Source: Eledone cirrhosa
Taxonomy: Eukaryota
Assembly (NCBI GenBank): GCA_964016885.1
Contig: OZ024740.1
Location: 371,628,001-371,692,000 of the forward strand
Direction: 5' to 3'
Length of the DNA: 64,000 bases
Part shown: positions 31,091 to 64,000 of the stretch, piece after piece
Layout: each line of letters starts with the position of its first letter
Position numbering within the stretch: the first letter of the stretch is position 1
Made by a program: the position numbers and the translations under genes
Notes under the pieces: model-generated
What the model saw: only the letters and a program-made list of their open reading frames with translations
Databases searched by the model: none
What the model was told of the DNA's origin: nothing

Positions 31091-31092
<2 letters not shown>
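28931..31092 (-). mobile_element. 5'-truncated Penelope-like element with an inverted pseudo-LTR
   Basis: Minus-strand ORF pieces 30945-29403: YKPYH..YASNHP, KISFSTTRN, CNC..CALRGDCL..VIYRC..YIGATSGPFKIRFRTH, CDLCLME..CTH. The 3' terminal 28931-29102 is repeated inverted at 30920-31092. Confidence 0.9.
28988..29027 (-). ncRNA. Hammerhead-like motif in the PLE pseudo-LTR (second copy on + at 30996-31035)
   Basis: TGCC-CTTAAGA-A-GCCC-aact-GGGC-GAAA-CGTACG-TA-GGTG; the core is CTTAAGA instead of CTGAAGA in both copies. Confidence 0.65.
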
Positions 31093-31144
<52 letters not shown>

Positions 31145-31165
31145 TATATATATATATATATATAT

Positions 31166-31395
31166 ATATTTAATATTATTCAAAATACTAAATGAAAAAT
31201 ATTCTCATAATCAAAATATATATTTTATTATACATATTTCAAAGGTACTATGGTGTTTAAGTACGTTTTCATCAAACAATTTGTCTGATGAAAACGTACT
31301 TAAACACCATTGTACCTTTGAAATATGTATAATAAAATATATATTTTGATTATGAGAATATTTTTCATTTATTAACATTTTGAATAATATTAAAT
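31166..31395. repeat. Foldback hairpin (~108-bp arms) next to (AT)n
   Basis: 31166-31274 is the reverse complement of 31286-31395. Confidence 0.88.
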
Positions 31396-31596: not shown

Positions 31597-31639
<43 letters not shown>

Positions 31640-31888
31640 CTTTCTTTATTAACCACAAGGGTCTACATAAAGTAGACATTAAGGACAGTACAGGACAATA
31701 CAGGGCGGTACAAAAGGGCATTTCTGCGTATAAAAAACAAGAAACAGAGGATGTAATAATAGAACAATGAAAAATTTTCCCAATAGGGGGGAGAGTTCCG
31801 AGGGACATTCGTGGCGAAAGCCCATTAAAAAGCCACAGTGACCCTGACCACCAGGGCAAGTGCCCTCTCCCAGTTTTCCACCTTTAAT

Positions 31889-34800
31889 TTACAGACACAT
31901 ACTCAGAGTAGGCCCATGCACTCGGGCCATTCTTGCCTCTCTCACCCATCTTTCAACAAAATGCTGGGAAGAGAGCACTTCCCTCTCTACCCTGATTTTC
32001 CTTTTCAAATGAAATTTGAAAAAGTTAATCAGGGCATCACCGAAGAGGTAAGTGCTCGTCTTCAGCCCTTTCAAACGTGTCCACCATACTATCTCTTTCG
32101 CCATGGCCACCAGACAGATAAAAACGGCCTGCCCTTCCCGGCTAAAGGAAGAGGGCGGGGCAATCCTCACGATGGACTCAGCTGATAGCTGGATCCGTCC
32201 TACACGTGACAGCAGGTGTTCGACATAAACCCACAAGTCAGCAATGCTCGGAAACTGGACGAGTGCGTGCAGGACGGTTTCGTCGCCCTGCTTGGACATG
32301 CCCGGCTGAGGGCACCTCCATGCCTGTAGAGTTTATCCCGAACTGGCAAAGCTCCTCGGTAGCACTTCCAGGCCAGGGATTTCTGGAAGTTGTCCATAGG
32401 CCCTGGCCCGAAAGTTCTTCCGAAGAGATTGGCTAGTTGATTTTCGTCGACGCCTAGAGTTTCCCCAAGTACGTCGTCGCTCTTCCCCTCCACTATTCCT
32501 CTATAGAACGCCAAGGTGGAGTTTCCACCGATCACATTGCCCGATTGGTCGAGGGCTGTGAACGCCTGAAGACATTCCAGTTTCCAATCGCTCCCTCTCG
32601 GTCTTCGCTTGACCCAGAACAGCAGATCCGTCAAGGAGACGAGCTAGGGAAAGACGAGTCTAGCAAACGGCGACCACACCTGAGTACCGTCGAGGAAGAG
32701 GTGGAGATGTTGTAGCCTGAGCGCGTGTCTGCGCATCATCAGCCACGGCATGCCCAGTCCTCCACGTAGCGGGTGTTGACAGCAGATGGACCGCCTGACC
32801 ATCGGAGCGCGTCCCTTCCACAAAAAGCGAAAGAGCAAACGCTCCAGCGCAGTCAGGCGGGGCTTAGGACAAGGTACGACGGTCAGGCGGTAGTAGATGA
32901 CGGACGCGATGTACGCGTTAGCCACCTCCGCTCGACCTTTCAGGGATAGCTACCTCTCCGCCCATTTCTGGGTGAGAGAAGCCACCCTGCTCGTCACCTC
33001 GTCCCAGTTTTTGTCCGTCTGAAGGTCCGGACCGAACCAGACCCCTAGCAATTTAACCGGTCCGTCCGTCCAGCGCCCGACGACGCTGTTGGACGGCATG
33101 GACCTGCCTCTCCAGGTGCCGAGCTGAAGGCCCACTGACTTTTTCTGGTTGATCATTGCTCCTGTCACCGCTTCGTATTCTCTTAATGTAGTGTCGATCG
33201 CCTCTGAAGACGGGCCGAAAGCCAGCTGCCCTCAGGGCTGCCGCTAGGTAACGATGGTCGACCCTATCGAAATCTTTCGACTGATCTAAATTGATCAAGG
33301 ACCCACCCGTGCCAGGTTCCCTACCTACCCTCTCTACGATGTATCGCATGAGGTGGAGGTTGTCGTGGATGGATCTGTCGGGAATGGCGCATGTCTGCGC
33401 CTCTGCCACCAGACCACCAACGACAAGCGCCAACTTCTTTGCTAGCACCATGGCTAAAATCTTGAACTCTGTGTTTAGCAGAGTTATGGGCCTAAAATTA
33501 TCTATGTTATCCCCCTTGTTCGGATCCTTTCTCAGCAGCGTCACAACTCCTCGGCTCACAGAGCTGGTAATTCTCCCGTTCTGTTGCCAGTTGCAGTAGA
33601 CGTCCACCAAGAGGCATCCGTACGTAAAGTTCATAGGGCAGACCATCCAAACCAGGCGATTTACCCCTTGTGCAGCCAGTCTTTGCCTCCCGTACTTCAG
33701 CGGCTGTTATCGGCTTTTCGCAACACTCTGCCTCAGTGGCCGAGAACCGCGGCATTCCGTCGAGGTAGACACTAAAGTCCATCCTTCGATCCGGCCCGCC
33801 GCTGCCCCCGAACAGCTGTGCGAAGTGTCGCTGAAAAGCTTCACACATTTTCCCGGGATCGAGTAGCATGCGCTCGTCGTGGTCCACCAAAGACCGTATC
33901 GTGGCTTTGTTGCCACGACGCGTCTCCGCCTCTCGGGCCCATTGAACGGCTTTCGTCCCCTCGTGTCTGAGAACACGCACCCTAGCTCTGACAACGCAGC
34001 CTTCGTGTTTTGCATTGAAGAATTGGTCAAGGGCCAATTTTGCCGCAAGTACGTCGGTCGCGATGCCTTTGCTAAGCGCCTCGTCTAATTTTCTAACTAA
34101 TTCTCCCTCTGCTCTATTTTTCTCTATTGCTAAAGCCTTACTAAACCTAATGGACTCTATTACAATCGCTCTTTTCAGAGCAAACCACCACTTTTTGTTG
34201 ACGATGGCCCCCGTCAACGCCCGCTTAACTAGTTCCCTAATCCTGTTTCTGTAGGCCTTGCGCGCTGGTAAGGACGTGTTTAGCTTCCAGTAGCCGGGTC
34301 CTCGTCTATGAAGCCTATCTAAGTCAAGCACACCGATCACGAATTTGTGGTCCGTGTAGCTGACTGTCTTGAATTGTGGACAGCCTATGCTAGACCTATC
34401 TATTTCCCTACAAAATACTCTATCTAGATATGATCTGGATGACCCTATGCGATTTGTCCAAGTCCACATTGGCACATTCGGGAAATCCAATCGGTACCTG
34501 TCAGACAGTTCAAAACGCCTGAGCAGGTTGGTGAGGCTCTTGCACCCTCCTCCCCTATCCGCTAATCCCACACAGTCCCAGCGTGCATCTAAGATCCCGT
34601 TCCAGTCGCCCACTAACACTAAAGAGCGGGACGTTCCAAGAAAGGTCTGCAGACGTTGGAAGAAATCAGGCCGCCCTGCTCCTGTCGGGGCATAGACGGC
34701 CACTAGCCTGAAAGCTTGCCCGTCACCGCTGGTCACGTCCAGCACGACCAACGTACCCTCTGGGTCCAGGAAGATGGCCCGTATGGCAAGATCCAAACCT

Positions 34801-35027
34801 CTCCGAAAAAGCACAACAACTCCTCTCCCCGATCCAGGACGGCTGAGAGATGCGTACACATCGTAGCCGCCGAAGATCGGTGCGAAGGCCCGTGCTTCGG
34901 AGATTCTGGTCTCGCTGATGGCCACTACATCTATGTTTAGTGACCTGAGGTCGTTGAGCAGGTGACCTTGCTTCCATGACGACCCCAAGCCACGCGCATT
35001 TATGCTGCCTATTCTGAGTGAGGTCAT
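31889..35027 (-). pseudogene. Element A ORF2: APE endonuclease, RT, CCHC (disrupted)
   Basis: SINARGL, VAISETRI, VGDWN, SYLDR, YTDHK, GPGYWKLN, KSPGLDGLP, NFRPITLLN, LDQSKDFDRVDH. The QGCPLS/YADD region is deleted near 33200. Confidence 0.9.
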
Positions 35028-35061
35028 GTTGAAATGGAGTGGAAAAGATGGGAAAGACCAC

Positions 35062-37024
35062 TTACCTTACTTCTCGTAGAGGAAGGATGGTTTCTCCATC
35101 CTTTTCACTGCATCTAGCCTCCTCCGGAAGGATGTCCTTATAAATCCTCCTGGAGAGTGCTTGTCGGAAGTCTCCGATGTCTTTGGGGAATTTTTGTTTT
35201 AGTGTCGTGTACGTTTTCTGTGTGATGCGAGTGATTTGAATGTGTGGAGGTGGTGTGAACTTTTGGGTTGTTGTGTAGTCTGTTTCTGTGATGCTGGTAT
35301 TGTGTTGGATGTAGTGTAATAATTGGTTGTTGTTCAAATTTATTGCTGTGTAGTGTGTATCGTTTTGGTTATTTTGTTTTGCTTGCGTTTGTTGTGGGTT
35401 TGTTTCTATTTCGCTTTTTCGTGACTTTTGTAGTGTTGGTGATGGTGGTGTTGGGGTTAATGATGGTGATGGTGTTGGTGTTTGTGGTGATGGGGTTGGT
35501 GATGCTGGTGTGGATGGTGGCATAGCTGTCCTAACTTTTTGTTTGATAGCTTATTTGTTTCCCTCTGTCTTTTGTTTTTGGAGGGGGAAGGAAGGGGATT
35601 TTTTCTTTTTTGGTTTCTTTTTCTTTTTTTCTTTTTTCCTGATACCGTTTCCCACTCCTCGTCGTCACAATCTGTCTCCAGTTGCGATAGGTCGGGGAGT
35701 GGAAAATCCTCCACAGGCGTTGGTTTTGGTTGTGGCGTGGTGGATAGTGTAGGCGCTGGTGCTAGTTCTTGCACGTTGGGTGGTGGTGGTTTTGGATTTG
35801 CTACTGTTGCTGGGGTTGTTGCTGTTACAGTTGCTTCTGTTGTTGCTGCTATAGTTGTTGCTGCCATTTCTGCTGCTGGTTGTGTTGATGTTGAGTCACT
35901 GGGGTGGGTAAGACAGGTGGCCTCAACCTTTTAGCCTGAGGGCAGAAAGCCCTTAGGTGGGTTCCTTCACCACAAACGACACACCTAGACCTTCTGCCCT
36001 CGACGATTACGGTGAGGTGGCTGCCGTCAGTGAGGTCTATTACCTCTGGGATCTCCTCAATGCTTTTTTGGTCCGCTTGGATCAGGAGCTCCATCCCAGA
36101 TCCGGACCAGTTCTCCTGCTTTTCTTTCGCTATTTCGATTATCTTGGTGTTGGCTTCGATGCCGGCGAGGACGCCAGCCATTAGTCAGGGAATTTCGATG
36201 GCCGGTGGAACGTGGGTCACCCTGATCTTCACGAGTCTCTAGCCACAATAGCTTGGGACCAGTGTGAAGTCGTCACTTCTTACTGGGGCCATGGAGTGTT
36301 CTCTGGCCTCCTGTGGTGTTTCAAAGAACACGTCCACGGTTCCATATTCCTGCCCACGTCAGATGTGGTTTTTATTTGCCCACACATGTCCCAAAGCTTT
36401 TTGGATTTGGGATTCGGATGCCCGTTCCACTCGGCGCGATTTTATGTTAATCGTCCGATAAGACACGGTGCATAGGCGCCGATGCGCCATTTTATTAGGT
36501 GGGGGGCGGGTGGTGGGGGTGGTGAGGCTGACCCTGTACCCATCTTTCTTTACCATTTTTTTGGCTTCTTCTAATTCCTCCTGAGTAACCTTGAATGCTT
36601 CGATCTTTTTTGCTACTCTGGCAAAAGACAGGGCTGTTTTCTTAATTTCATTGTTGCTGTTGTTGTTATCGTTATTTTTGTTATTGTTAATTTTAGTTTC
36701 AGATGTGGTGGTGGTGGTGGCGTCAGATGTGTTTGGTGTGGAAGAGTTCATTTTGGCTGAATTCGTTTCGATATCACGAGATAATTTATTTTTTTCTTTT
36801 GTTTCTGTTGTCGCTGTGGTGGTGGTGGGAGTGGCGGCTTCAACACCTGCAGTCATTGGTAATGGCGAAAAATGAATGTCTGCCTGAGACAAATTTAAAA
36901 TATTGCTACTGCTTATATTTTTAGTGTTGGCAAACGTAGTAATATTTACAATGGTGGTGTCGGTGTGAGGTGTTAGTTTGTGCGGAAGGCTCTCAGCTAC
37001 TGGGTTCAGCTGTGAGTCGGCCAT
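35062..37024 (-). pseudogene. Element A ORF1 (gag-like, CCHC zinc knuckle)
   Basis: VEGRRSRCVVCGEGTHLRAFCP, basic KKKKRKR stretch and Thr/Asn/Pro low complexity; stops and frameshifts. Confidence 0.82.
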
Positions 37025-37225
37025 GATTTTTCAAAGAAATATTTTTGTTTGTTTGATAATTATAAAAGTTTAAATTTTTGGCTCAAGGCCCCAATCTTTT
37101 TGAGTGTCCTTTTCAGAAAACAATGTATGTGCACTTATATACAGTTAACAATAAAATTTTCCAATAATGGCAATTTTAAACAACTGAAAATAACAAACCT
37201 TTGCGGAGCTCACGATAATACGATT

Positions 37226-37282
<57 letters not shown>

Positions 37283-37284
<2 letters not shown>

Positions 37285-37410
37285 ATAATAATAATAATAA
37301 TGATTTCTTTATTGGCCACAAGGGCTGACATCAAGAAAAACATTACAGACGGCACAGGACGGTACAGGACGGTACGATGTGGGTTTTGTGCGTGTAAATA
37401 TGTTTATCAT
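37283..37410 (-). mobile_element. Short 3' fragment of another Tx1-like element with an (ATT)n tail, tandem to element A
   Basis: Reverse complement GCCCTTGTGGCCAATAAAGAAATC(ATT)n plus GTCCTGTAC repeats like the 3' UTR of element A. Confidence 0.75.
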
Positions 37411-40900: not shown

Positions 40901-41557
40901 ACTGTGTAGGATCTGTGGAGAGAGAGAGGAGACTGTGGCTCACATTGTATCCGAGTGTAAACACCTACCCCAGACTCACTATATAGGCTGGAGACATGAT
41001 GTGATGGGCAGGGTGATCCACTGGCACCTATGCAAAGTAAATAATTTACCATATTCGGAGAAGTGGTATGAGCATAAGCCAGAGTCGGTGATAGAAAACG
41101 ATCAGGTGAAGGTGCTGTGGGATTTTAGGATACAGACGGACAAGAAACTAAAACACAATAGACCTGACCTGGTGGTTTTGGACAAGGAAAAAAGATCGTG
41201 GATGTAGCCTGCCCATTCGACACAAGAGTGTAAGAGAAGGAGAGGGAGAAAATTAACCGATACCAGGTCTTAAAGTGGGAGGTAAAAAGGATTTGGAACT
41301 GCCATGAAGTCAAAGTGGTCCCGATTGTCATAGGCGCACTAGGTACTATCTCAAAGAGTTTCCAAGGATGGTTAAAGAAAATTGGTTCCGCCCCGCTTTT
41401 TGGAACAATTCAAAAGGCATGCTTGCTGGGAACAACAAGAACCTTCCGATACGTCCAGAATATCTGAGGTTGCAGGTAGTGGCTTGATATTCATTTCAAC
41501 AAACTTTCCAGTCGAATAACATCAATGACTGAGACTCAAAGAACAATAATAATAATA
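37960..41557 (+). mobile_element. R4/Dong-like RLE non-LTR retrotransposon (degenerate), (AAT)n tail
   Basis: WTKELN..GYRKRM, EPWWKKRL, YRPIICL, DYKKAFDMVPH, GILQGDSLSPLLF, HLLFMDDLKL, CRICGEREETVAHIVSEC, RHD, NRPDLVV; ORF ends ~41467, then AATAATAATAAT. Confidence 0.9.
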
Positions 41558-41637: not shown

Positions 41638-42451
41638 TTTATTAAAATAACAGATTAAAGTTTAAGCAAAGAATCGCTGCTTTCACTCTTAACAGGATCT
41701 TCTGAAACTAAAAAAATCAATCTGTGAACGCAGAAGTAAATATTTCTGAAAACGTTGCAACCGAAGGAAGACAGGAAGACTATACTTTGGTTCGTGGAGA
41801 CGTTCCCAGGCAATGAACGAAAAAAAAACGAAACTAATACGTCATTATTTGGACTGAGTGAACAATTACACACAAAGACAAAACCACGTTTATGGTATAA
41901 ATGAAGTCGGGGACTCATATTCTATTTAGGTGGTTCGTGGAGACGTTCCCTGGTAATGAACGAAAAAGAAACGAAGATAATACGTCATTCTGTAGTCGTA
42001 GACTAAAATTCTATTTCGGAAACCGAATGATTCTCGGCTTCAGAGTTAAGAATAATGTAAATATATTACAGAGGTTATTGAAATCAACAAAAATTTGATT
42101 TCAATAACCTCTGTAATTTATTTACATTATTCTTAACTCTGAAGCCGAGAATCATCGGTTTCCTAGATAGAATTTTAGTCTACGACTTCCTTTATACCAT
42201 AAACGTCGTTTTGTCTTTGCGTGTAATTGTTCCCTACGCTCACATAATGACGTATTATCTTCGTTTTTTCCCCGTTAATTGCCAGGGAACGTCTCCGCGA
42301 ACCAAAGTATCGTCTTCCTATCTTCTTTTGGTTGCAACGTTTTTCGAAATATTTACTTCTACGTTCACAGATTGATTTTTTTTAGTTTCAGAAGATCCCG
42401 TTAAGGGTGAAAGCAGCGATTCTTTGCTTAAACTTTAATCTGTTATTTTAA

Positions 42452-43178: not shown

Positions 43179-48985
<5,807 letters not shown>

Positions 48986-51900
48986 TGATAGAGTAAGACA
49001 CGCTTCACATCGGCTCCGCTATTCCATCGGGATTTACCCTTACTATGTAAGTACCGGATAAATTTTTCAGTGCAACACATTTGGAACACTAACCCCTGCC
49101 CCTGTTATTTAGGGAAACATTTTTGCATTTACCCCCTTTTTAGGGGGTAAAATAAATATCTAATTTTGCCGAAAAATTTCGTTCTTGGCAGCATGGCGGA
49201 AAAGATGGCAGACATGTCTGCCATTAGCTCTGCCACGCCCCCCAAGTCTGAAGAACAAAAAATAATTACAACAAAATTAGACAACGAAACAAACAAAGAA
49301 AATGAAAAAACAAATGTTAAGGAAAATGAGCAAACGGAAAACAAACAAACAGAAAATAATACAAATAACAACAGGGCAACTTTCGCCCAGAAAACAAAAC
49401 AATCCATTACATACACACCAATTGACCTAACGGCCGCCAGAGAAAAACTGGCCGAAGCAAAGAAACACATTGTTTTGGGGGAAAACGGAATGTTTTCCAT
49501 TAACTCCCCCCCCAGAATTCAAGAAAGCGAGAACAGAGAACACAGTTCTCTTCAGAACAATCCTAAACCAAACAAGAAAGCCAGCACAGCCCAGCCAAAT
49601 GGAGATAGAGTTGGTCCTAAAAGACTATATGAAGAATATTCTCTTCATACGAAAGGACCGACTCTATGGCAGCATTTCGGTCCTAACAAAAGACAAGGAA
49701 ACGGCGGAGAAGCTTTCCATAAGCCCACTCTAATCGACAACATACAGCTTCTATCCCTCCTACATGGGTAGAAGAACACAGAGAGTAAAAATACAAACAA
49801 TGCTGCCCACAATGGACTTCTGGTGGGCTATTGCTGGCTTCATAGACATGGGCGAGGACACAGTGCTGTCAATGGGGAAGGCATCCGGAGATGCGTTCCT
49901 GGGAATGGGCCTCGACCTACTAGTCCAAATGAGGCCCGAAAGAATAGCACAAATCCCCGATCGCATCTGGCTGGATGAGCTCACCCAATAGATATAATTG
50001 TAGAGGGGAGAAGACCAGCATGCTATTTATGCACGGAAAGGGGACACATTAAGGCTAACTGCCCGAAACGTATCCCCCAAAAAGGACTATTGCCCACACC
50101 CATCACAAACAGTACACCAACACCACCCACCTCCAAAAATACACTAATACCACACACAGAAAACAAAATACAAACACCACCAAGCACAACACAAACATCA
50201 CCACCACCAGCACCAACACAAACACCACTACCACCATTACCAACCACAAGCACGACACAAACAGCAGCACCACCACCACAAAACGCATTCCAAACAAATA
50301 ATAAAAAAAACAGCAACAAATCTACCCCTCCCGCAAAAAAAAACAACCAGACACGACGTCCCTCCCACCTAGCGCTGAAGAGTTTCCCCCAACTTCTGAA
50401 GAAGAAGGAGAAGCCTTCAGACAAGTTAAAAGAAAAAAAAGAAAGCACACACCCAGCACACCACAAATAACCCACACACAAACACCAACTCCAATAAAAA
50501 ACACCCCACCCTCAACAAACAAAAATAAATCTGCGCCTCCCCTCTCCGAAACATTGACAGCATCACAAAAAAAGACATTGCAATACACATATATAAATAA
50601 AGAAAACAAAAAACTGTTTAAATTAATAAACAATAGCCCTTTGGTACAAACCGAAGGGCCAAACTTTATCTCAACAGAGAACTTCACCCATTTAAAAATG
50701 ATAAAGGTCCCTCTGGACCTTTATCGTTCCTTAAAAGAACAATTTAGACAGGACGTGAGCCCCCCCTGTTTAAAACCGTTAAATCGCGTCCTCTTGAAAG
50801 ATTTCCCCATAACCTCCCCTCTCCCCGACACAACTCCAAACACCCCAACCCCACCACACTCGGGCACCCCCACACCACCACAAAACATCCCTCCACCCAA
50901 CACACCTGACGCCATGGAAATTACACAGCCCGGAGAGGTAGGTGCTTTTCTTTCTTCACTTTCAACACCAAAATAGATCAATTGAGAGTTGGCTGTTTGA
51001 ACGCGCATGGCCTGGGATCAGCTTGGAAGCAAGCAAAGCTACTAAGTGACCTCAGGTCACGAAGTATAGATGTAATGGTTGTTTGCGAGAGTCGGATCAG
51101 CAGCGTGCGACAGCTGGCTCCCGCCTTCGATGACTTTGAGATGCACGCATCTCTCTGTCAACCCGGAGGCGGGGGGGGGGGAGTTGCCGTACTGCTGGAT
51201 AAACGTCTGGCTCTCGACGTACAGATTGTTCACTCGGACCCGGGGGGTCGATTACTGGTGCTGGACGTCGGAGGCGGTGAAGGCGGGGCTTTCAGACTGG
51301 TCGGTCTTTATGCCCCCTTCGGGGCTGAAAGAGCCGACTTCTTCCAGCGACTGGAGACTTTTCTAGGAACGTCGCGTTCCCTGCTTTTTGTGGGGGACTG
51401 GAATGGAATCCTAGATGCGCGTTGGGACTATGCAGGGGAATGTCCCGATAGAGGGGGTGTAGCAGCCTCAAGGGGTTACTCGATCGATTCGACCTGGTCG
51501 ATAGATTTCGACTAGATTGTCCAACTGCGCCAACCTGGACCTGGGCAAACCGCAGTGGACAATCTAGATCGTACCTAGATAGGTTTTTGGTTAGGAGTAA
51601 GGATAGGGACGTATTTAGTTGTCCAGAATTGATCATGGTTGGCTATTCAGATCACAAATTAGTGACCTGCGTGGTCAACCTTGATAGAACGCATAGACAG
51701 GGTCCCGGTTACTGGAAGATGAACTTGTCCTTGCCGGCAAAGAAAGATTACAGGAACCGAATTAGTAGCTTAGTTAAGATGCGGTTGACGGGAGCGATCG
51801 TCAACAGTAGGTGGTGGGTATCTTTAAAGAGAGAGATTAGAGTAAGTTCGATAGGTTACAGTAAGGAACTAGCGGCGAATAGAAATAGGAAGGAAAGGGA

Positions 51901-54662
51901 GTTAACAGATAAACTAGAAGAGGCGATTAGGAGCGGAGACGTAGCCAGAGTGTTAGCGGCGAGAACGGCGTTGAGCCAGTTCTTTGACGCGAAGCACGAA
52001 GGCTGCGTTGTCCGAAGTAAAATACGTGCTTTAGGAAACGAGGGGACCAAAGCTGTTAGCTGGGCCCGCGTGACAGAAGCCAAGAGTGGGATTAAATCCA
52101 CCATTCGGTCTTTGCGAGACCAGGATGGACGGGTGATCCTTGAACCTGAGCGGATGTGCGAGGCCTTTCAAAGGCACTTTGCTCGACTGTTCGGAGGGGG
52201 CGGGGGGCCGGACGGGGATGTGGACTTCGGTCCATACCTCGACGGTCTACCGCGTCTTTCGAGCGGCGAAGCGGAGTGCTGCGAAAGGCCAATCACAGCC
52301 ACTGAAATCGGGGAAGCGCTCAGCCAATGCAGCAGACGCAAATCTCCGGGTCTCGATGGTCTACCATACGAACTTTATTTAGCTATGCCGGTCTTGTTCT
52401 CCGAACTCCTCGAGGCTGTCTATTCCAACTGGCAACAGAACGGGAGAATTCCCTGTTCTGTGACCAAGGGCGTGGTCACGCTAGTGAGGAAGGACGAGAG
52501 CAAGGGGGACGACTTAAGTAACTTTAGGCCCATAACTCTGCTGAATGCAGAGTTACAGATTTTGGCCAAGGTGTTGGCGAAGAGGTTGGCGCTTGTGGTG
52601 GGTGGTTTGGTGGGAGACGCGCAGACATGCGCTATCCCGTCCAGGTCCATTCACGACAACCTCCACCTCATGCGATACATCATAGAGAGGGTTGGCAACG
52701 AACCCGGCTTTGGTGGGGCCCTGATCAACTTGGATCAATCTAAGGCGTTCGATAGGGTCGACCATGATTACCTGGATGCGGTGCTAGCGGCGGCGGGCTT
52801 CGGACCCGTTTTCAGGGGCTGGATTTCTGCCATGCACAGTGGCAACATCTACTCTAGGATTAAAGTAAACGGCTACTTCTCGGAGCCGTTTCAAATCACC
52901 CGGTCCATCAGACAGGGGTGCCCCCTCTCCTCCCTTCTGTACGTATTGACTCTCGAGCCACTGCTGCGGAAGTTGGAGTTGCTGCGGGGCATACCCCTGG
53001 AACCGGGATTGCACAAAGCGGTCTCGGCCTATGCCGACGACATAACAGTAATGGTGGCGGACGCCTCGGAAATCGGGGCGATCGCCACCCTACTGGAGGA
53101 ATACGAAAGGCTGACGGGGCTAGGCTGAACCGGGACAAGTCAGTCGGTTTGCAACTCGGAACGTGGAGGGGCAAACCGATGCCGTTAGACGGTGTCGTCG
53201 GGCGGTGGACGGAGGGCCCGGTGAAGCTGCTCGGGGTCTGGTTCGGACTGGACCTCCAGGTGGAGAAGAATTGGGGCGAGGTGACGAGCAGGGTGTTTGC
53301 GCTGACCCAGAAGTGGGCCAAGTGCAAACTATCACTGAAAGGTCGGGCGGAGGTGACGAACGCTTACATAGCGTCCGTCATCTGCTACCGCCTGACCGTC
53401 GTGCCTTGCCCCAAGGAAAAGATCACCATCATGGAACGCATGCTCTTCCAGTTCCTCTGGAAGAAGCGGCCTCCCATGGTGAGGAGATCCATCTGCTGCC
53501 AGCACCCTTCGAAAGGAGGGCTGGGTATGCCGTGGCTGTTGATGCGTAGGCACGCATTGAGGCTACGGCATCTACAGGTATTCCTCACCGGTCAGCCGGT
53601 GTGGGCCCCGTTTGTGAGGCGAGCCTTCCCACAGCTCGTCTCGCTCACCGAGCTGCAATCCTGGGTGAAGCAAAGACCGAGAAAACTGGGCAACTGGCAC
53701 ACCGAGTGTGCCCAGGCGCTCACGGCTATCTGGCAAGCGGACCCGACTGTCAGTGGAGAATCCACCTCGACATTCTATAGAGGGCTGGTGGCTAGCAGGG
53801 GCGACGACACCCTTGGAGAGTCGCTAGGCATGGAGGAGGACGAACTGGCCAGCCTGTTCGGTAGAACTTTCGGCCCGGGACCCATGGACAACTTCCAGAG
53901 GTCCCTAGCCTGGCAGTGTTACGGGGGGGCTCTGCCCGTTCGAGAAAAGCTCTACAGACACGGGCGCCCGGGCAGGGATCCAGCGAAAAAGATCTGTCCC
54001 AGATGCGTGCGCGACGAGGAAACCGTTGCGCATGCACTGGTACACTGCCCGGGCGTTGCCGATCTGTGGGGCTACGTCGAACGACTGCTGTCGCGTGTGG
54101 CGCCGATTCGATTAACCGCCGAGTCTGTGGTGAACATCAAGCCGCCGCCTCCCTTCAGAAACGAAGCAGAGGCGGTCTTTCTGTGCGTAATAGCCATGAT
54201 GAAAGAGGTTGTGTGGTGGACGCGCCTGAAAGGTCTGAGGTCGGGTGACTTTCTCTCCGGCCATCACCTGGTTTACTTCTTCCGATACCATTTCGGAAGA
54301 AGGATCAGGATGGAGAGAGAAGTGCTTGGCCCCAGACAGTTTTATGAAAGGTGGGTGAAAGAAGCGAGAATGGCTCGTGTAAATGGGCCTTCTCTCTACA
54401 TTGTTCTGTAGGTGAAGAAGTGAAGAGGAAAGGGGGAGCGCCTCCTCTCTGGGCTTCCCCCGCGAAAAGGGTTGCACACTTTTCGGGGGTATGTGCAATC
54501 CCGAACACGCCCCCTCCCTTTTGAGGACTTTTTATTATTATATTATTATTGTTATTCCTTTTTCTTTACTCGATTTATGTAAACTTCCCCACTGTGTATT
54601 TGTCCCCTTCTTTTGTGCCCTCGTGGCAAATAAATAGAAATTTATCTATCTATCTATCTATC
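48986..54662 (+). mobile_element. Tx1-like element C, full length, most intact, (TATC)n tail
   Basis: ORF1 49193-~50976 (CYLCTERGHIKANC), ORF2 ~50973-54411 with all RT motifs, 3' end CCCTCGTGGCAAATAAATAGAAATT(TATC)n. Confidence 0.93.
50973..54411 (+). pseudogene. Element C ORF2 (two frameshifts; start codon reads ATA)
   Basis: LDQSKAFDRVDH, IRQGCPLSSLLY, SAYADDI, CPRCVRDEETVAHALVHC; frameshifts near 51475 and 53118. Confidence 0.9.
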
Positions 54663-57600
54663 GACGGACGTGCAGTAGATCGTCGGTAAGTTTTTGTAAA
54701 ATTTTCTATACATAAACAGAATTTAATGTGAAAATTTATATTGTTTGATAGATTAACACCTAGGCTGAATTGTCAGCTGGGTGGTAACCTCAGTTTTCAC
54801 CTCACAGGGGCGGAAATTTTATTTGAAAGATTTTTAAAAATTTAATATTTTTGCTATCGATAATGGCTAGCTTAGTAGAAGCAACGCTACCGAACGCTGG
54901 CGAAGAAAGTAGAGAGAGAAATGCAGAGAGTAACGTTACCGCAACTTCTGCATACATAGGCGTCACTATGGAGACAAATAGTGACGACAAAGTTTTGTTT
55001 TGCCAAGAAGCCGAAAATGCAACTTACAAGATGGACCACACAGCTTACAACAGACATCAAAAACCACAAAAAATGAAACAATAGACACAACTACAAACGG
55101 AAAAACTGACAACCACAACAACAACAACAACAAAAAAATAACTTTTACAGAAACAGTCACAAATAATAATAACGTTACCTCTAACTCCGCATATATAGGC
55201 GTCTCCATGGAAGCCAATATGGACAACAAAAATAAAAACAAGATCGAACCACACAGTGTACAACAGAAAAAACAACAGAAAATAAAACTATTGACACAAC
55301 TACAAACGGAAAAACCGACAACCACAACAACAACAATAACAACACCAAAAAAACTTTTGCGCAAACAGTCATCAAGACTCAAGAATTCAAGGATCTCGAT
55401 ATCTCCAATGCGAAACAGATGCTCTTTGAAGCAAAGGAGTTTATCACTTTCGGTGAAAACGGTGAATTTCAAATAAACTCAGCCCCAGAAATTCGCCTGG
55501 AAACATTTCGAAGGACAATTACCATCAGAACTGTTTTTCAAATGAAACAAAACGACCAGCATTCCTCAGTCAAGGGGAAATTGAGGCAACCTTGAAGGAG
55601 ATATTGCCAAACATTGACTTTATGCAGAGGGCCAAACAGTACGGGAGTATTTCAGTACTCCTCAAAAGCGAGGCACTTGCACAAAGATACTCAGTGATGC
55701 CAATACTGTCAAAAAAGACACCTTTTTCCCTACATACCTGGGAAAAAGGACACAAAAAATCGGAATTACAAAACATACCACCAAATATTAATATTTGGTG
55801 GATATTGGCAGGATTTTTAGAGGAGAGAAAAGACACCATTCTCTCCATCAAAAGGTCAACCAGACACACGTGGTCGGGTACAAATTTGGAGATTCTGGTG
55901 CAAATGAGCCCGGAAAGAGTCTCCAAAATACCAGAAAAAGTGCTGATGGACAACAACAACCACATAAGCATTTCGGTTGAGGGACGAAAACCACATTGCT
56001 TTCGTTGCAATAGCACCACACACCTAAAGGCCTCCTGCCCTTTACAAACATGCCCAACTAAAACAATACAAAAGAAAACACTGTTACCAACACTAACACC
56101 AAAACAACCACCACCACAACAACAACAATAACTACACACGAAACAAGCAAACACACCAAAACAAACAGCCACTCAACCAACAACAACAAAAAAACACACA
56201 GACAACACCCCTGAAGAACACAGCCCCATCCCATCCCACTCCATCAAACACTACCACATACACACACCGAAACACCACCACCACCACACAACAAACCCCT
56301 ACCCCACACTCCTGACGATGATTATTCATTAACAGATGAGGCTGCTTCTCCTTCTTTAAGTGAAGAAGAAGGAGAACCGCGGAAATCCAAAAAACAAGAA
56401 AAAGAGACACCACAAAACCCCCGAAACTCCAATCACCAACACCAACACACAACCACAGACACAAACAACAACACAAACAACACCACAGTCAAACATCCCC
56501 CTACCAGCAAAACCAACACCAACACCACCCCAAAGAAGCATCCACCATAAAAAGAAAACTCCCGAACGAACAACAAACAATAACAACACAACAAAAACAC
56601 AAACAACAATACGCATACATCAACACAAACAACAAGAGTTTGATGGAGGTCATCTCCCAAAATCCCAAGGTGGAGACGGAGGGCAAATCTTTCGTTAAAG
56701 CAGAATCGTCTCCACACCTTAAACTTATAAGTGTTTCTATGGAGACCTATATTGACCCGAAGAAAAAATGTTCGCAGATTGTGGGCAACCCCTGCCAGAA
56801 ACCCATCAACCGCGTCCTGTTAAAATGATTCCCCACCCCACCCAACACTTCCTCCAGCACCCAAATGGAGATTGAACAACCCGATCTCCAGGAAACGAAA
56901 AGGTAAGTGTACCTTTTCGTCCCTTTTCGCCAACTCTTCTCCACCAACATGGCTGACTTACGAGTTGGAAGCGTGAATGAGCGTGGCCTAGGGATGCCCT
57001 GGAAACAGGGCCAACTTTTAAACGACCTTAGGTCACACGGTATGGATGTGATAGCCATCACCGAGTCTAGGATCCACAACAGGCAGCAACTAACCCCCAT
57101 TTTGATTGACTTTGAGATCTACGCATCTCTCTGTCAGCCAGGAGGTGGAGCTCAGACTGGTGGCCGTTTATGCTCCGACCGGGCAATCGCAATCACGGCC
57201 AGACTTCTTTAAGCGTCTAGAGTCTTTTCTGGGAACGTCTCGCTCCTTACTTTTAGTGGGGGACTGGAATGGTATCCTAGATGCCCGATGGGACTATGTG
57301 GGAGCATGTCCCAGTAGAGGGGGGTGCAACAGCCTAAAAAATGTAATCGGCCAATTCCAACTGGCCGATAGCTATCGACTAGATTTCCCGACTGCACCAC
57401 AGTGGACGTGGGCAAACCGCAGCGGGACATCTAGATCGTATTTAGATAGGTTTTTCATTAGAGAGAAGGACAAGATGTTAAGCTGTCCACAAATGCACAT
57501 GGTTGCCTATTCAGACCACAAACTAGTCATCTGCATTGTCAACCGTGATAGAATACATAGACAAGGACCCGGATACTGGAAGCTGAACGTGTCGCTACCG

Positions 57601-60530
57601 ACACGTAAAGCCTACAGTGAACGGATAAGTAGATTAGTTAAGCAACATTTGACGGGAGCCATCGTCAACAACAGATGGTGGTACCCCCTCAAGAAAGCAA
57701 TTAGAGTAGAGTCGATAGACTTTAGCAGAGAGTTAGCCTTAGAGAGAAACAAAACAGAAACGGAACTAGTAGCCAAGGTAGAGGAGGCGCTTAGGAGTGT
57801 CAACGTAGCTAGAGTGCTAGCAACGAGAACGGCCCTGGACCAGTTCTTCGACGCGAAACACGAAGGCTGCGTGGTCAGAAGTAAATCACGTGCTCTAGGA
57901 AACGACGGAGCGAAAGCTGTTAGCTGGGCACGAGTGGCAGAGGCGAAATGTAGCAGCAAGTCCAGAATTCGGTCTTTGAAAGACCAAAACGGACGCGTGT
58001 TATTTGACCACAAGCGGATGTGCGCGGCCTTTCAGCGGCACTTTGCGCAACTGTTCGGGCAGAGTGACGGTGCGTCGAACGGAGCAATGGACTTCGGTTC
58101 ATACCTCGACGGCCTGCCGCATCTCTCGAGCATGGACGCCGAGTTCTGCGAAAGACCGATCACAGCCACTGAGATACGGGACGCTCTGGGCCGCTGCGGG
58201 AAATGCAAATCACCCAATCTAGATGGTCTACCCTATGAGTTTTACACAGGCATACCGGACTTGTTCACTGGCGTCCTCAAAGCCGTCTACTGAAACTGGT
58301 AGCAGAACGGGAGAATTCCAAGTTCTGCAGGCAGAGGCGTAGTAACGCTGATCAGGAAAGACGAGAACAAGGGGGACGGACTAAGCAACTTTAGGCCCAT
58401 AACTCTGCTCAACACAAAGTTAAAGATTTTGGCCAAGGTGTTGGCAACGAGGTTGGCGCTTGTCGTCGAGAACCTGGTAGGGAAAGCGCAAACGTGTGCA
58501 ATCCCGACCAGGTCCATACACGACAACCTCCACCTCATGAGATACATTATAGAGAGGGTGGGGTGTAAACCCGGCCTTGGTGGGGCTCTGATCAATTTAG
58601 ATCAGTCTAAGGCGTTCGATAGGGTCGACCATCGATACTAGGAAGCGGTTGTCAAGGCGGCCGGTTTCGGATCCGTCTTCAGAGGCTGGATCGCTGCAAT
58701 GCACACCAACATCTGCTCGATGGTCAAGGTGAACGGCTACCTATCGGAGCCGTTCGCAATCACGCGTTCCATCCGACAGGGATGCCCTCTTTCCTCCATT
58801 CTGTACATACTGAATCTAGAGCCACTATCGAGGAAGCTGGAGCTGCTGCAGGGCATTCCGTTGTAACCGGGACTGCGGAAAGCGACGTAACGGTAATGGT
58901 GTCGGAAGCCTCCGAAGTCGGGGCGGTCGGCAACTTACTGCAGGAATATGAAAGGCTCACAGGAGCAAAACTGAATCCGGACAAGTCTGTCGGTTTGCAA
59001 CTCGGAACGTGGAGAGGCAAACCGATGCCGTCCGACAGCGTCGTCGGACGCTGGACGGACGGACCGGTGAAATTGCTCGGGATCTGGTTCGGTCCAGACC
59101 TCCAGTTGGAGAAAAACTGGAACGAGGTCACGGCTAAGGTATTTGCGCAAACTATCCTTGAAAGGTCGAGCGGAGGTGGCGAACACTTTCATAGCGTCCG
59201 TCATCTACTACCGCTTGACCGTCGTGCCTTGTCCCCGTGAACACCTCACTAAGATCGAACGCATGCTCTTCCAGTTCCTTTGGAAGAAGCAGGCTCCACT
59301 GGTGAGGAGATCAGTCTGCTGTCAGCACCCTTACAACGGAGGGCTGGGAATAATGCCGTGGCTGATGATGCGCAAGCATGCCCTGAGGCTACGGCATCTA
59401 CAGGTATTCCTCACCGACCCCCAACCGGTGTGGGCACCGTTTGTGAGACAGGCCTTCCCGCAACTTGTCTCGCTGACGGAGCTGCAGTCCTGGGTCAAGC
59501 GAAGACCGAAGAAGATGGGCGCCTGGCACATTGAGTGCGCTCAGGCGCTCACAGTCCTCTGTCAAGCGGGCACGGTAATCAGTGGAGACTCCACTTCGGC
59601 ATTCTATAGAGGGTTAGTACGTCACAAGGGCGACGACGTGCTCGAAGAGACTCTAGGCGTCAAAGACGACGAACTCACCAGTCTGTTTGGTAGGACTTTC
59701 CGCCCGGGACCCATGGACAACTTCCAGAGGTCCCTGGCCTGGCAGTGCTACCGAGGAGCCCTACCAGTTCGTGACAAGATCTACAGGCACGGACGCCTCG
59801 GCAGGGATCCTTCCAAGAGGACGTGTCCAAGATGCGCGAAGGACATTGAAACTGTCTTGCACGCAATTGTACACTGCCCGGGCGTAACCGATCTGTGGAA
59901 CTACGCGGAACAACTGCTGTCGCGTATGGAACAAATCCAGTTGACTTCCGAGTTCATAGTAAGGATCAAACTACCAACTTCTTTCAAAAACGAAAGAGAG
60001 GCGGTTTTCCTCTGCATAGTGGGTATGGTGAAAGAGGTTATATGGTGGACCAGTTTGAGAGGACTAAGGACAGATGTCTTTCTCTCCGGACAACAACTCA
60101 TTCCCTTCTTTAGATACCACTTTAGAAGGAGAATCAAAGTGGAGAGAGAGGCACTGCACCCCAGTAAATTTACTGAAAGGTGGGTGACTGTGGCAAAAAT
60201 GGCCCGTGTGATTGGGCCTTCTCTGTATATAAACCTGTAGGTTGAAGAAGAAAGCAAAAGGAAGAAAGGAGCACTTGCACAACACGCTCCTGAAGTTGAG
60301 GGTTGTTCTATCGACGGGGTATTAAACAACCCATTTGTGGCGCCTCCCTCCTATTGGGGATTTCGATTGTTGTAATTGTTTGTTTTATATTTTTTTACAC
60401 GATTGTATGTAAAATCCCCGACATGTCTTTGTTTTGTCCCCTTTTCTTGTGCGCGTTTGTGGCTAATAAAGAAATATATCTAACTATCTATCTATCATAT
60501 CTCTCTTTCTCACTATCTATTTATCTATTA
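54663..60530 (+). mobile_element. Tx1-like element D, full length, degenerate (TATC)n tail
   Basis: ORF1 54863-~56906 (CFRCNSTTHLKASC), ORF2 56949-60240, 3' end TTTGTGGCTAATAAAGAAATA-TATC... Confidence 0.92.
56949..60240 (+). pseudogene. Element D ORF2
   Basis: MADLRVGSVNERGL...LDQSKAFDRVDH...CPRCAKDIETVLHAIVHC...GPSLYINL*; the YADD segment is deleted near 58885; stops. Confidence 0.9.
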
Positions 60531-60706: not shown

Positions 60707-63700
60707 ATCATTGGCAATAAGGGCAGGGGCCCCAGGTTATCACAGCCTGGGCCCGCTCGTCATCGTGCCATTGTAATAGAGCCAAACAAGGCAATTAGTC
60801 TTGGCTGCTGGAACGTACGGACGCTGCTTGACAGGGATTCCTTGGGGCGTCCTGAACGAAGGACCGCTCTTGTTGCAAAGGAGCTTCGACGTTACGATCT
60901 TGACATCGTGGCTTTATCTGAGACGAGGCTAGCTGGAGATGGTCATCTTACGGAATTTTGTGGAGAATATACATTCTTCTGGAAAGGAAGAGATGAAGGA
61001 ACCAGAAGAGAGGCTGGGGTAGGATTTGCTGTTAAGACTGTGCTTGTGAACAAATTAGAGGAATTCCCAGTAGGGATTAGTGAGCGTCTTATGTCCATGA
61101 GAGTTCCGATGGACAAGGGAAGATATGCTACCCTGGTGAGTGTGTATGCTCCAACTATGAGTTCTGTCGATGAGGTAAAGGTGTCCTTTTACCATGCCTT
61201 GAAAGGTGTTTTAAGAAATATCGGGCAGACAAAGTCATCGTGCTTGGTGACTTTAATGCCAGAGTGGGTAGGGATTTTAACACATGGAATGTAATCGGAA
61301 GGCATGGGGTGGGAAAGTGTAACGGCAATGGTATGCTCCTGCTGCAGATGTGTGAGGAGCTGGATCTGTGTGTTACCAACACCATGTTCCAACAAAAGAA
61401 CAAATTCAAGACCACATGGATGCATCCTGCATCTAAGGAATGGCATCTTTTGGACTACGTCCTAGTTAGGATGCGTGACAGACAGGATGTGCAGTGTGTT
61501 CGTGTTCTTCGTGGAGCTGAGTGCTGGACGGACCACGGCCTGGTACGCGCAAAAGTGAAACTAATCACTAAACGTAAAATCCGGGCTCCTGGTGTTGCCC
61601 TGCCCAAAAGATTGAATGCTACTCGTCTTAAGGATAAAAATGTGAAGAGGACATTGGAAGAAGAGATGCAGGCTGCAGATCTTGGTGAGGATTGGCCGAC
61701 CCTTAAAAAGTCGGTTTATGATGTGGGCAGGCGTGTTCTGGGATTGGCGCAGAGGAAACATCAGGACTGGTTTGATGAGAATGATGTACATGTAGAAGAC
61801 TTGATGGCTGATAAGAGGCGTGCTCTGTCACGCTACTTGACGGCAAAACCACAGGAGAGAAATACGTTGCATGAGGAACTCAGGGATGTAAAATCACGTG
61901 TTAGGCGGAGTCTTTCTCAGATGAAGGATCAGTGGTGGAGTGAGAAGGCTGGTGAGATACAAACTGCGTCTGATTCCAATAACACAAAGCTGTTGTACAG
62001 TCTCTTGCGTGAGGTTTATGGACCGTCTTCTTCTCTGGTGACACCGCTTCGCAGCAAGGATGGCAAAGAATTTCTTCGTGAATCACAAGGAATTCTACGA
62101 AGGTGGCGAGAGCACTTTGATGATCTTTTGAATCAGCCGTCTGTCGTCAGTGAAGATTTCCTCAATCTCATTCCAGAAAGTCCTGTGAAAGTAGCTCTCG
62201 CAGAACCTCCGACGCTTGTGGAGGTTGCAGTGGCTATTTCGAAGCTTAACAGTGGAAGATCTCCAGGTATGGATGGCATACATGCTGAGCTCCTACAATA
62301 TGGTGGTGAGAGACTCCTGCAACATCTTCACTCTTTGTTTGGCAGGATATGGGCTAATGAATCCGTACCTGAGGACTGGAGAGATGCAGTAATGGTGGTC
62401 TTGTACAAGGGAAAGGGTAACAGGAACGATTGTGGGAACTACAGGGGTATATCATTGCTTTCTGTCGTAGGCAAAGTTTTATGTAGGGTGCTTCTGGACC
62501 GTCTGCTGACACACATTGCAGATTGTGTTCTTTCTGAAAGTCAATCTGGTTTTCGTGCTGGACTACTGATATGATCTTCTCAGCTAGACAGCTCCAGGAG
62601 AAGTGCATGGAACAAGGCTTGGATCTGTATCGGGTTTTTGTCGATCTGACAAAAGCTTTCGATACTGTTAACAGAGATGCATTATGGAAGGTTCTCCAGA
62701 AACTTGGTTGCCCTGATAAGTTCCTTGCCTTAGTTAGGTCTTTCCATGACGACATGAAGGCTTGGGTTAATGTCGGGGGTAACATGTCGGAGCCTATCTC
62801 AGTAAAAAATGGAGTGAAACAGGGGGATATTCCAGCACCGACCCTGTTTGCCATATACTTTGCAATGGTTTTCTGTATTGCATTCAGGAATTGCGAGCAT
62901 GGTGTTTACATCCGATATCGAACCTCAGGCAGCATATTTAACATCAGGCGCTTTGCTGCGAAGACAAAAGTATTTACATCAATCATAAGAGACCTCTTGT
63001 ATGCAGATGATTGCGATCTTGTAGCGCACACAGAGAGTGATATGCAGCACATTTTGAATGCATTTTCTGACGCTTGCACTGCCCTAGGTCTGACTGTCAG
63101 TCTCAAGAAAACCGTCGTCATGTACCAACCTGCCCCTGGTAAGCAGTACACTGAACCAAACATCTATGTGTATGGCAAACGACTTGGAGTGGTTGATCAG
63201 TTTGTCTACCTGGGAAGCACTGTCAATCGATACAGCAACCTTGACAGTGAAATCTCACTTAGGATTAGGAAAGCAAGTGATGCTTTCGGAAAGCTAGAAA
63301 GGCGACTCTGGGGTCGGCGAGACATATGCAGGAGGACAAAGGTAAAGGTGTACAGGGCATGTGTGCTCTCTTGTCTTCTTTATGCCTGCGAGACCTGGGT
63401 CACATATCGACACCACCTTAAGCAATTGGAGCGTTTCCATCAGATGTGTCTCAGACGGATCCATGGCGTTCACTGGAGGGACCACATCAGTGATGTAGAG
63501 ATTTTGGAAAGCTCGATGTGTGACAGTATAGAAGCTCTTGTGCTTAAGCAGCGACTTGGAGTGGTCACCTTGCCAGGATGAAGGATTCTAGAATACCAAA
63601 ACAACTCTTTTATGGAGAGTTGGTTAAAGGAAAACGACCGCCACATAAACCGAAAAAGAGGTATAAGGATTCCTTGAAAGCCTCTCTGAAAGACGCTAAC

Positions 63701-64000
63701 ATCTCTGCTGATACATGGGATAATATTGCTGCTGATCGTAATAAATGGAGAAAGACTGTATATGAGGGAAAAGTTGCCTTTGAGGCATCTCGAATCGCAT
63801 ACGAGAAAGTAAAACGGGATGTGAGGAAGGGCATTGCTGTTGCACTTCCAGACGGCGAGGGTCCTCCTATGGTGCTGACATGCAGCGTATGTGCGAGACT
63901 CTGCCTAAGCAAAGTTGGACTCGAAAGTCATCTTCGCAGTCATAAAGTAAGACCAGTGGTTGACTACCAGGCTGCTGTTGGAGATGCTACTCATCATGCT
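60707..64000 (+). mobile_element. RTE-clade (BovB-like) LINE, APE-RT with C-terminal C2H2-like finger; runs off the window
   Basis: WNVRTLLD..RPERRTALVAKELRRYDLDIVALSETR, LGDFNARVG, TWMHP, CWTDH, NYRGISLLS, VDLTKAFDTVNR, GVKQG, LLYADD, CSVCARLCLSKVGLESHLRSH; a few frameshifts. Confidence 0.93.

What the first reader, a model, noticed from the sequence alone, without database searches (positions are those of the whole stretch)
50936..60245. ORF2 appears enclosed in an intron: splice donor at the ORF1 end and acceptor at the ORF2 stop
Seen donors: AAG|GTAAGT in D (56902/3) and A (minus, 35066/5), each overlapping the ORF1 TAA in the same phase, and GAG|GTAGGT in C (50937/8); B is degenerate here. 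Seen acceptors: pyrimidine-rich stretch + TGTAG|GT using the ORF2 stop codon in B (48727), C (54411) and D (60240), followed by GAAGAA-type purine-rich sequence; A has AAG|GT just after its stop (31882/1). The surrounding ORF1 and UTR sequences are poorly conserved, so the retention of these motifs stands out. Inference: splicing would give an ORF1-only mRNA that keeps the 3' recognition tail. This could set ORF1p:ORF2p stoichiometry (as copia gag splicing does) and could generate HAL1-like ORF1-only retrocopies.
Basis: partly seen in the sequence, partly recalled or inferred. Interest (0 to 1): 0.82.

Follow-up and report, generated by a model that had tools for sequence, protein, structure and literature searches.

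The report
LINE with ORF2 likely inside intron
Four decayed copies of a microsatellite-targeting LINE retrotransposon, probably from an octopus relative, include three with a splice-donor motif at the end of their first gene, which likely lets them splice out the reverse-transcriptase gene and make an mRNA for the RNA-binding protein alone, but no spliced RNA has been seen.

Summary
All motifs are at the stated coordinates. The four elements are decayed L1/Tx1-type LINEs in microsatellites; ORF2 is 61% identical to an Argonauta hians protein. The donor half is strong: best GT of 268 in A and of 272 in D, second of 254 in C (shuffle p 0.001, 0.0005, 0.0025), absent in B. It sits in phase 2 (A, D) and phase 0 (C); 2 of 11 database ORF1 tails end in [E/Q]GK, as a phase-1 donor would encode. 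The acceptor half is weaker: best of 124 AG sites shared by B, C, D, but barely above coding-driven sites, built from conserved ORF2 codons plus the stop, and poor in A. New: B, C, D also carry a likely 97-122 nt intron in the 5' UTR (p 0.007-0.015), and the predicted splice keeps one reading frame in A, C, D. The decisive test failed to run: no genome, no RNA run listed, 15 of 6085 joints shown. Verdict: likely a three-exon ORF1 mRNA from a LINE, copia-gag-like, about even odds, unproven.

The parts
31639..37225 (-). Element A, decayed L1/Tx1-type LINE between (TAG)n/(TTA)n and (ATT)n runs
35060..35068 (-). A: donor AAG|GTAAGT over the ORF1 TAA (phase 2)
31881..31884 (-). A: weak AAG|G acceptor candidate 7 nt after the ORF2 TAA
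   Evidence: rank 55 of 410
31723..31744 (-). A: strongest acceptor-like site of the element (CAG|A), in the 3' UTR; alternative partner, not shared by B, C, D
   Evidence: rank 1 of 389
43297..48960 (+). Element B, in (TATC)n
43340..43446 (+). B: predicted 107-nt 5' UTR intron (GTAAGA ... CCTACAG|G)
   Evidence: p 0.015
45422..45449 (+). B: pyrimidine-rich inter-ORF spacer ending in CAG, 7 nt before the ORF2 ATG; B has no donor at the ORF1 end
   Evidence: (acceptor rank 2 of 361)
48705..48728 (+). B: acceptor candidate on the ORF2 TAG
48986..54641 (+). Element C, in (TATC)n
49047..49143 (+). C: predicted 97-nt 5' UTR intron (GTAAGT ... TTTTTAG|G)
   Evidence: p 0.011
50935..50943 (+). C: donor GAG|GTAGGT, phase 0
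50938..54411 (+). C: predicted 3474-nt intron holding the spacer and all of ORF2
   Evidence: inferred, no RNA
54412..54641 (+). C: predicted last exon (purine-rich start, three hairpins, AATAAA)
54662..60476 (+). Element D, in (TATC)n
54686..54807 (+). D: predicted 122-nt 5' UTR intron (GTAAGT ... CTCACAG|G)
   Evidence: p 0.007
56900..56908 (+). D: donor AAG|GTAAGT over the ORF1 TAA (phase 2)
56903..60240 (+). D: predicted 3338-nt intron holding the spacer and all of ORF2
   Evidence: inferred, no RNA
60241..60476 (+). D: predicted last exon (purine-rich start, hairpins, AATAAA)
60180..60188 (+). Coding-driven donor-like AAG|GTGGGT 61 nt before the acceptor; same site in B (48667) and C (54351), absent in A

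Best explanation
These are decayed copies of a microsatellite-targeting L1/Tx1-type LINE that carry a conserved splice-donor motif at the end of ORF1, and the family likely makes two RNAs: an unspliced one that encodes ORF2p and is copied into the genome, and a spliced one that would lose the 3.2-3.5 kb ORF2 and encode ORF1p alone. Shown: the two ORFs, the donor motifs (A, C, D), the acceptor-like sites, the 3' hairpins and AATAAA. Inferred steps: (1) U1 binds the ORF1-end donor, helped by the 72-78% pyrimidine spacer behind it; (2) the spliceosome joins it to the AG at or just after the ORF2 stop; (3) because the donor lies on or before the ORF1 stop, ORF1p gains a short C-terminal tail read from the 3' UTR (lysine/arginine-rich in B, C, D) and its stop falls in the last exon; (4) in the B/C/D lineage a second 97-122 nt intron in the 5' UTR is also removed, giving a three-exon, host-like mRNA; (5) this supplies the excess of ORF1p, as spliced gag RNA does for copia elements. 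The introns persist because a spliced RNA copied back would lack ORF2 and perhaps promoter sequence, so only unspliced RNA founds new active copies.
For: Donor is the best GT of 268 (A) and of 272 (D), second of 254 (C); local shuffle p 0.001, 0.0005, 0.0025. A and D share a 10-nt word there although their ORF2 fourfold sites are only 56% identical and A lies outside the B/C/D clade. The motif falls in phase 2 in A and D, phase 0 in C, so it is not tied to the stop codon. Of 11 database ORF1 homologs that I inspected because they reach the C-terminal domain, 2 end E-G-K-S-stop (P0014, Argonauta hians) and Q-G-K-stop (P0026), which is what a phase-1 AAG|GTAAGT would encode; a third has L-G-K eight residues from the end; background [EQK]GK is 46 in 28,790 positions. 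The ORF2-stop AG has the best mean score of 124 AG columns shared by B, C, D. The predicted splice reaches a conserved 3' UTR motif in the same frame in 3 of 3 copies with a donor (A, C, D), C offsetting its different phase. Best 5' UTR donor-acceptor pair beats shuffles in B, C, D (p 0.015, 0.011, 0.007). The last exon keeps three hairpins, 8 of 22 pairs with a change on both sides.
Against: Only four copies, all broken, three of them one clade (100/100), so B, C, D are not independent. B has no donor. The acceptor scores are modest (C 6.5, B 2.9, D 0.8, A -1.8) and two sites inside ORF2 that exist in all four copies for coding reasons score almost as well (means 2.8 and 2.5 against 3.4); the pyrimidine tract is the P-S-L codons of the conserved ORF2 end and A has TAA, not TAG. 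A coding-driven donor of score 5.5 is kept in B, C, D 61 nt upstream of the acceptor, showing that such motifs can persist without splicing. 8 of the 11 ORF1 tails show no G-K near the end, their DNA was not seen, and that test was devised after seeing them. The 5' UTR donors do not align in one column and A shows no such intron (p 0.36). Frame agreement in three copies has about 1 in 9 odds by chance. In human L1, conserved splice sites are mostly unused and are kept for other functions (PMC5860796, Discussion).
Confidence: 0.52

Rival explanations
1. The donor is a real, selected U1-binding site but is not normally spliced to the ORF2 end: it would guard the RNA against early cleavage or help processivity and export, or it overlaps a signal for ribosomes to stop and restart at ORF2; the acceptor is a by-product of ORF2 codons and a TAG stop.
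For: Donor much stronger than acceptor; 2-5 AATAAA words lie in the ORF1 half of each copy; the pyrimidine spacer before the ORF2 ATG is kept in all four copies, also in B which has no donor; human L1 keeps a donor for a transcription-factor site (PMC5860796, Discussion).
Against: No AATAAA lies in ORF2 downstream of the donor in any of the 4 copies, so there is little to guard there; a translation signal would be expected to keep its phase to the stop, which C and the G-K tails do not.
Confidence: 0.22
2. The donor is spliced, but to another partner: a downstream 3' UTR acceptor (as A's site at 31723), a host exon after read-through, or varying partners between subfamilies. ORF2 would still be lost, but the 3' recognition hairpins might be lost too, so no HAL1-like copies would arise.
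For: A's proposed acceptor ranks 55 of 410 while its 3' UTR CAG ranks first. B lacks the donor but has a strong acceptor just before the ORF2 ATG (rank 2 of 361), which with its 5' UTR donor would give an ORF2-only RNA instead.
Against: C and D have no AG at the place of A's 3' UTR site or of B's spacer site; no in-frame ORF1-ORF2 fusion acceptor is shared.
Confidence: 0.14
3. All motifs are chance plus shared ancestry: Arg-stop and Leu-stop codon pairs followed by GT.
For: Few copies, post hoc choice of sites, recalled matrices; B lacks the donor; coding-driven motifs of similar score exist.
Against: Given a TAA stop, the five other donor bases have probability 0.0012 (A) and 0.0003 (D) from local composition; rank 1 in two divergent lineages; a non-stop phase in C; a separate 5' UTR set in three copies.
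Confidence: 0.12

Closest known systems
Tx1 clade LINEs that target microsatellites (Kibi, Koshi, crocodilian Tx1; PMC4494074 passages) and the L1-Tx1 families counted in Octopus vulgaris (13 recently active families, 421 insertions; PMC13282606 passages)
   Same: Two ORFs, APE endonuclease, RT, C-terminal zinc motif, ORF1 with a CCHC knuckle, insertion in microsatellites.
   Different: Targets here are (TATC)n and (TTA)n-type runs, not (TC)n or (TTC)n; no splicing is mentioned in the passages seen (0 hits for 'splic' in PMC13282606 and PMC9115989).
Ty1/copia spliced subgenomic gag RNA (Drosophila copia, Arabidopsis EVADE; PMC7197481 passages)
   Same: Splicing removes the enzyme-coding part to make an abundant mRNA for the structural protein.
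   Different: LTR elements with one gag-pol ORF; shown by experiment. Here a two-ORF non-LTR element, predicted only.
Human L1 splicing and SpIREs (PMC5860796: abstract, Introduction, first part of Discussion)
   Same: A LINE with conserved donors and acceptors, including a 5' UTR intron; spliced copies are dead ends.
   Different: In the sections read, donors lie in the 5' UTR and splicing damages the promoter or ORF1p and is rare and harmful; no donor at the ORF1 end and no ORF1-only product.
HAL1 (half-L1), ORF1-only non-autonomous elements (PMC5753468 passage; Bao and Jurka 2010 not held)
   Same: Has the structure that a retro-copied spliced RNA would have.
   Different: All four copies here hold ORF2; no ORF2-less copy was seen; whether any HAL1 arose by splicing could not be read.
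Penelope-like elements (PMC4209133, search listing only) and TART (PMC1636488, abstract)
   Same: Retroelements that keep spliceosomal introns.
   Different: Penelope is another class with one ORF; TART introns are in antisense RNAs.

Membership tests
L1/Tx1-type non-LTR retrotransposon | ORF2 with N-terminal APE endonuclease and RT | tested here: met
   PF03372 in A and B pieces, PF00078 in B and C pieces, above cut-off; nearest solved protein is human L1 ORF2p, E 5e-33, against 1e-21 for R2
L1/Tx1-type non-LTR retrotransposon | C-terminal zinc-binding motif in ORF2 | tested here: met
   PF13966 in C and D at E 2-4e-5, just under the curated cut-off; present in 7 of 9 homologs
L1/Tx1-type non-LTR retrotransposon | Separate ORF1 with RNA-binding region and CCHC knuckle | tested here: met
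   C-x2-C-x4-H-x4-C in 4 of 4 copies; PF00098 E 0.001 in C, under cut-off; Atlas neighbours of homolog P0014 are mollusc and arthropod CCHC clusters
Tx1 clade in the strict sense | RT tree places it with Tx1 rather than L1 | not testable with these tools
   No named Tx1 reference sequence was available; trees hold only window copies and database homologs
Tx1 clade in the strict sense | Target preference for a repeat | tested here: met
   B, C, D are head to tail with (TATC)n at all four borders; A lies between trinucleotide runs. Four copies only
HAL1 | Encodes ORF1p only | tested here: not met
   4 of 4 full copies hold ORF2
U2-type spliceosomal intron (ORF2) | Consensus 5' splice site | tested here: met
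   3 of 4 copies
U2-type spliceosomal intron (ORF2) | Pyrimidine tract and YAG acceptor | tested here: inconclusive
   YAG|G in 3 of 4; strong only in C; confounded by ORF2 codons
U2-type spliceosomal intron (ORF2) | Removal seen in RNA or as a precise ORF2-less DNA copy | tested here: inconclusive
   One search showed 15 of 6085 joints, from contigs of runs not on record as RNA; no genome

The most novel reading that the evidence does not exclude
A LINE lineage of octopods is built like a host gene: a 5' UTR intron and a second intron that is ORF2 itself, so that regulated splicing switches between a three-exon ORF1p mRNA with a new basic tail and the unspliced transposition template, and precise ORF2-less retrocopies (HAL1 made by splicing, not deletion) exist in the genome.
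Probability: 0.3. Interest if true: 0.8.

Novelty: new variant of a known kind. Interest (0 to 1): 0.6.

Why it matters
LINEs are generally held to make both proteins from one unspliced bicistronic RNA, with splicing an accident that harms them (PMC5860796). A lineage that had evolved to treat ORF2 as an intron would give a second answer to how LINEs make far more ORF1p than ORF2p, converge on the copia gag strategy, offer the host a splicing-level control point, and give a precise, testable route to ORF1-only HAL1 elements. The exact junction coordinates make it a one-afternoon test for anyone with the genome and RNA-seq.

Tried and rejected
No whole genome was held, so no consensus and no search for ORF2-less copies. 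Run search: no RNA holder listed among 13 runs. Contigs of 4 runs laid on 44200-60470 at 80% likeness: 15 of 6085 joints, 24 of 15,102 loose ends and 40 of 7064 letter differences were shown, none at a proposed donor or acceptor; this says nothing either way. In that call one contig of run X5 (kind unknown, 88 million letters) crosses C's acceptor without a gap (54043-54525) and one of X6 crosses C's donor; unspliced forms are expected under every hypothesis. X5 depth is higher over C's ORF1 end than over its ORF2 start, but contig depth cannot rank parts of a gene, so I did not use it. 3'-end motif scans: 7 of 7 metagenome loci were chance matches, 0 viral. ORF2 scans: none in GTDB, none viral, 2 distant RT matches at 27-32%, not used. 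ORF1 word-index searches: 0 hits and 1 hit. Cluster members and names of the ORF1 homologs could not be looked up. An ORF1-ORF2 fusion splice was rejected: no shared in-frame acceptor near the ORF2 start. Internal deletions of A and B in ORF2 do not have GT..AG ends. The first tree had A in the wrong frame and was redone. The short 3' fragment at 37262-37398 has no ORF1 upstream in the stretch read. Earlier-finding look-ups gave nothing on this family. Ten paper searches listed no paper on a LINE whose ORF2 is spliced out; Bao and Jurka 2010 and Belancio 2006 were not held, Repbase reports are not searchable, and no supplements were read; any of these could already note such a splice.
Full report
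What is there. The window holds four near-full copies of one LINE family: A (37225-31639, minus) and B, C, D (43297-48960, 48986-54641, 54662-60476, plus), the last three head to tail with (TATC)n at every border and A between trinucleotide runs. All are broken by stops, frameshifts or deletions. ORF2 has an APE endonuclease, RT and a C-terminal zinc motif, human L1 ORF2p is the nearest solved protein, and ORF1 has a CCHC knuckle in all four. Homologs include Argonauta hians proteins for both ORF2 (61%) and ORF1, so the host is probably an octopod (inference). B, C and D form a clade (100/100) that excludes A; fourfold-degenerate ORF2 sites are 52-59% identical between A and the others and 62-71% among B, C, D. 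This fits the microsatellite-targeting Tx1 type described in PMC4494074 (passages), though I could not place it on a tree with named Tx1 elements.

The observation. Every motif is at the stated position. With approximate, recalled splice matrices the ORF1-end donor is the best GT in the sense strand of A (1 of 268) and D (1 of 272) and second in C (2 of 254); dinucleotide shuffles of the region give p 0.001, 0.0005 and 0.0025, and 0.69 for B, which has none. A and D share a 10-base word here in otherwise barely alignable sequence (16 of 2000 shuffles). The acceptor side is weaker: ranks 1 of 377 (C), 11 of 365 (B), 18 of 393 (D), 55 of 410 (A). It is the best of 124 AG columns shared by B, C and D (mean 3.4), but two coding-driven sites in ORF2 reach 2.8 and 2.5. 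Its pyrimidine tract is made of the last codons of ORF2, whose end is conserved at protein level in the homologs, so part of its retention needs no splicing.

Evidence added here. First, phase. The donor overlaps the stop in phase 2 in A and D but lies in phase 0, 39 nt before the stop, in C. A profile search of ORF1 cores found 376 proteins and listed 150; I inspected the 11 that reach the C-terminal domain. Two end in [E/Q]-G-K plus Ser-stop or stop, the reading of AAG|GTAAGT in phase 1, a third has L-G-K eight residues from the end, and eight show nothing; background for [EQK]GK is 46 in 28,790 positions. Their DNA was not seen and the test is post hoc, but a motif that stays at the ORF1 end in all three phases is an RNA signal, not a codon effect. 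Second, frame. The predicted splice enters the 3' UTR in one frame relative to a conserved hairpin motif in A, C and D and adds a short tail, basic in B, C and D; chance odds are about 1 in 9. Fourth, the predicted last exon of 210-240 nt starts purine-rich, keeps three hairpins (8 of 22 pairs with two-sided changes) and ends in AATAAA.

Mechanism. The most likely reading is alternative splicing: unspliced RNA encodes ORF2p and is the template for new copies; spliced RNA lacks ORF2 and supplies ORF1p, its stop codon in the last exon. That U-rich sequence after a donor helps U1 recruitment, and that a stop in the last exon avoids nonsense-mediated decay, is general knowledge recalled, not tested. 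I put this at about 0.5. The donor as a selected site is firmer (about 0.85, the sum of the first three readings); its partner is the open point. Rivals are a U1 or translation signal that is not spliced (0.22), splicing to other acceptors (0.14; A's best acceptor is further into the 3' UTR, and B has an acceptor before the ORF2 ATG in place of a donor), and chance (0.12). Against the main reading: three of four copies are one clade, a coding-driven donor is equally well kept in B, C, D 61 nt before the acceptor, and human L1 keeps splice sites that it seldom uses (PMC5860796, Discussion part 1).

What could not be tested. No genome was held; the run search and read-laying gave no answer (see tried and rejected). 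So neither spliced RNA nor an ORF2-less copy has been seen, and the stoichiometry and HAL1 ideas remain predictions.

Comparison and novelty. It works like the spliced gag RNA of copia elements (PMC7197481, passages) but is not an LTR element; it is not HAL1, since all copies hold ORF2 (definition from PMC5753468, passage); it differs from human L1 splicing, which in the sections read starts in the 5' UTR and harms the element. Penelope elements (PMC4209133, listing only) and TART antisense RNAs (PMC1636488, abstract) keep introns of other kinds. Ten searches listed no LINE with ORF2 as an intron, and two octopus repeat papers do not mention splicing in their main text; two key older papers were not held and no supplements were read. 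I rate it a new variant of a known kind, interest 0.6.

Noticed in passing
window 43340-43446, 49047-49143, 54686-54807: Intron-like GT..AG stretches in the 5' UTRs of B, C, D; each has a second conserved AG 31 nt upstream of the main acceptor in B and C (43415, 49112).
   Followed up: partly
window 45422-45459: B lacks the ORF1-end donor but has a strong acceptor 7 nt before the ORF2 ATG; with its 5' UTR donor this would give an ORF2-only RNA.
   Followed up: partly
window 48667-48727, 54351-54411, 60180-60240: A donor-like site in the R-W-V codons of ORF2 lies exactly 61 nt before the ORF2-stop acceptor in B, C, D; both are absent in A. Could be a mini-intron that changes the ORF2 end.
   Followed up: partly
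window 43180-60528: Three different subfamilies (75-81% alike in ORF2) are stacked head to tail in one (TATC)n locus, each new copy using the tail of another as target; A likewise sits at the (TTA)n tail of an older 3' fragment (37262-37398).
   Followed up: partly
window 48740-48860, 54425-54530, 60255-60370, 31770-31870: Three conserved 3' UTR hairpins with compensatory changes, likely the ORF2p recognition signal.
   Followed up: partly
window 50581-50811, 56607-56825, 35125-35358: A conserved 75-residue C-terminal domain of ORF1 after the low-complexity linker, with no Pfam match; shared with database homologs P0011, P0014, P0026, P0057.
   Followed up: partly
window about 570-10950: About 10 kb tandem array of a short unit that opens long repetitive frames; a satellite.
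   Followed up: no
window 24324-26519 (+) and 29654-31179 (-): Two decayed elements whose translations look like Penelope-type RT plus GIY-YIG (by eye, recalled; no Pfam hit for the one piece tested).
   Followed up: no
window 38560-41470 (+), 60740-63970 (+), 21816-22469 (-): Other LINE remnants with RT matches; by eye an R4/Dong-like and two RTE-like elements.
   Followed up: no
window 41680-42440: Two long inverted arms around a short centre, MITE-like or fold-back.
   Followed up: no
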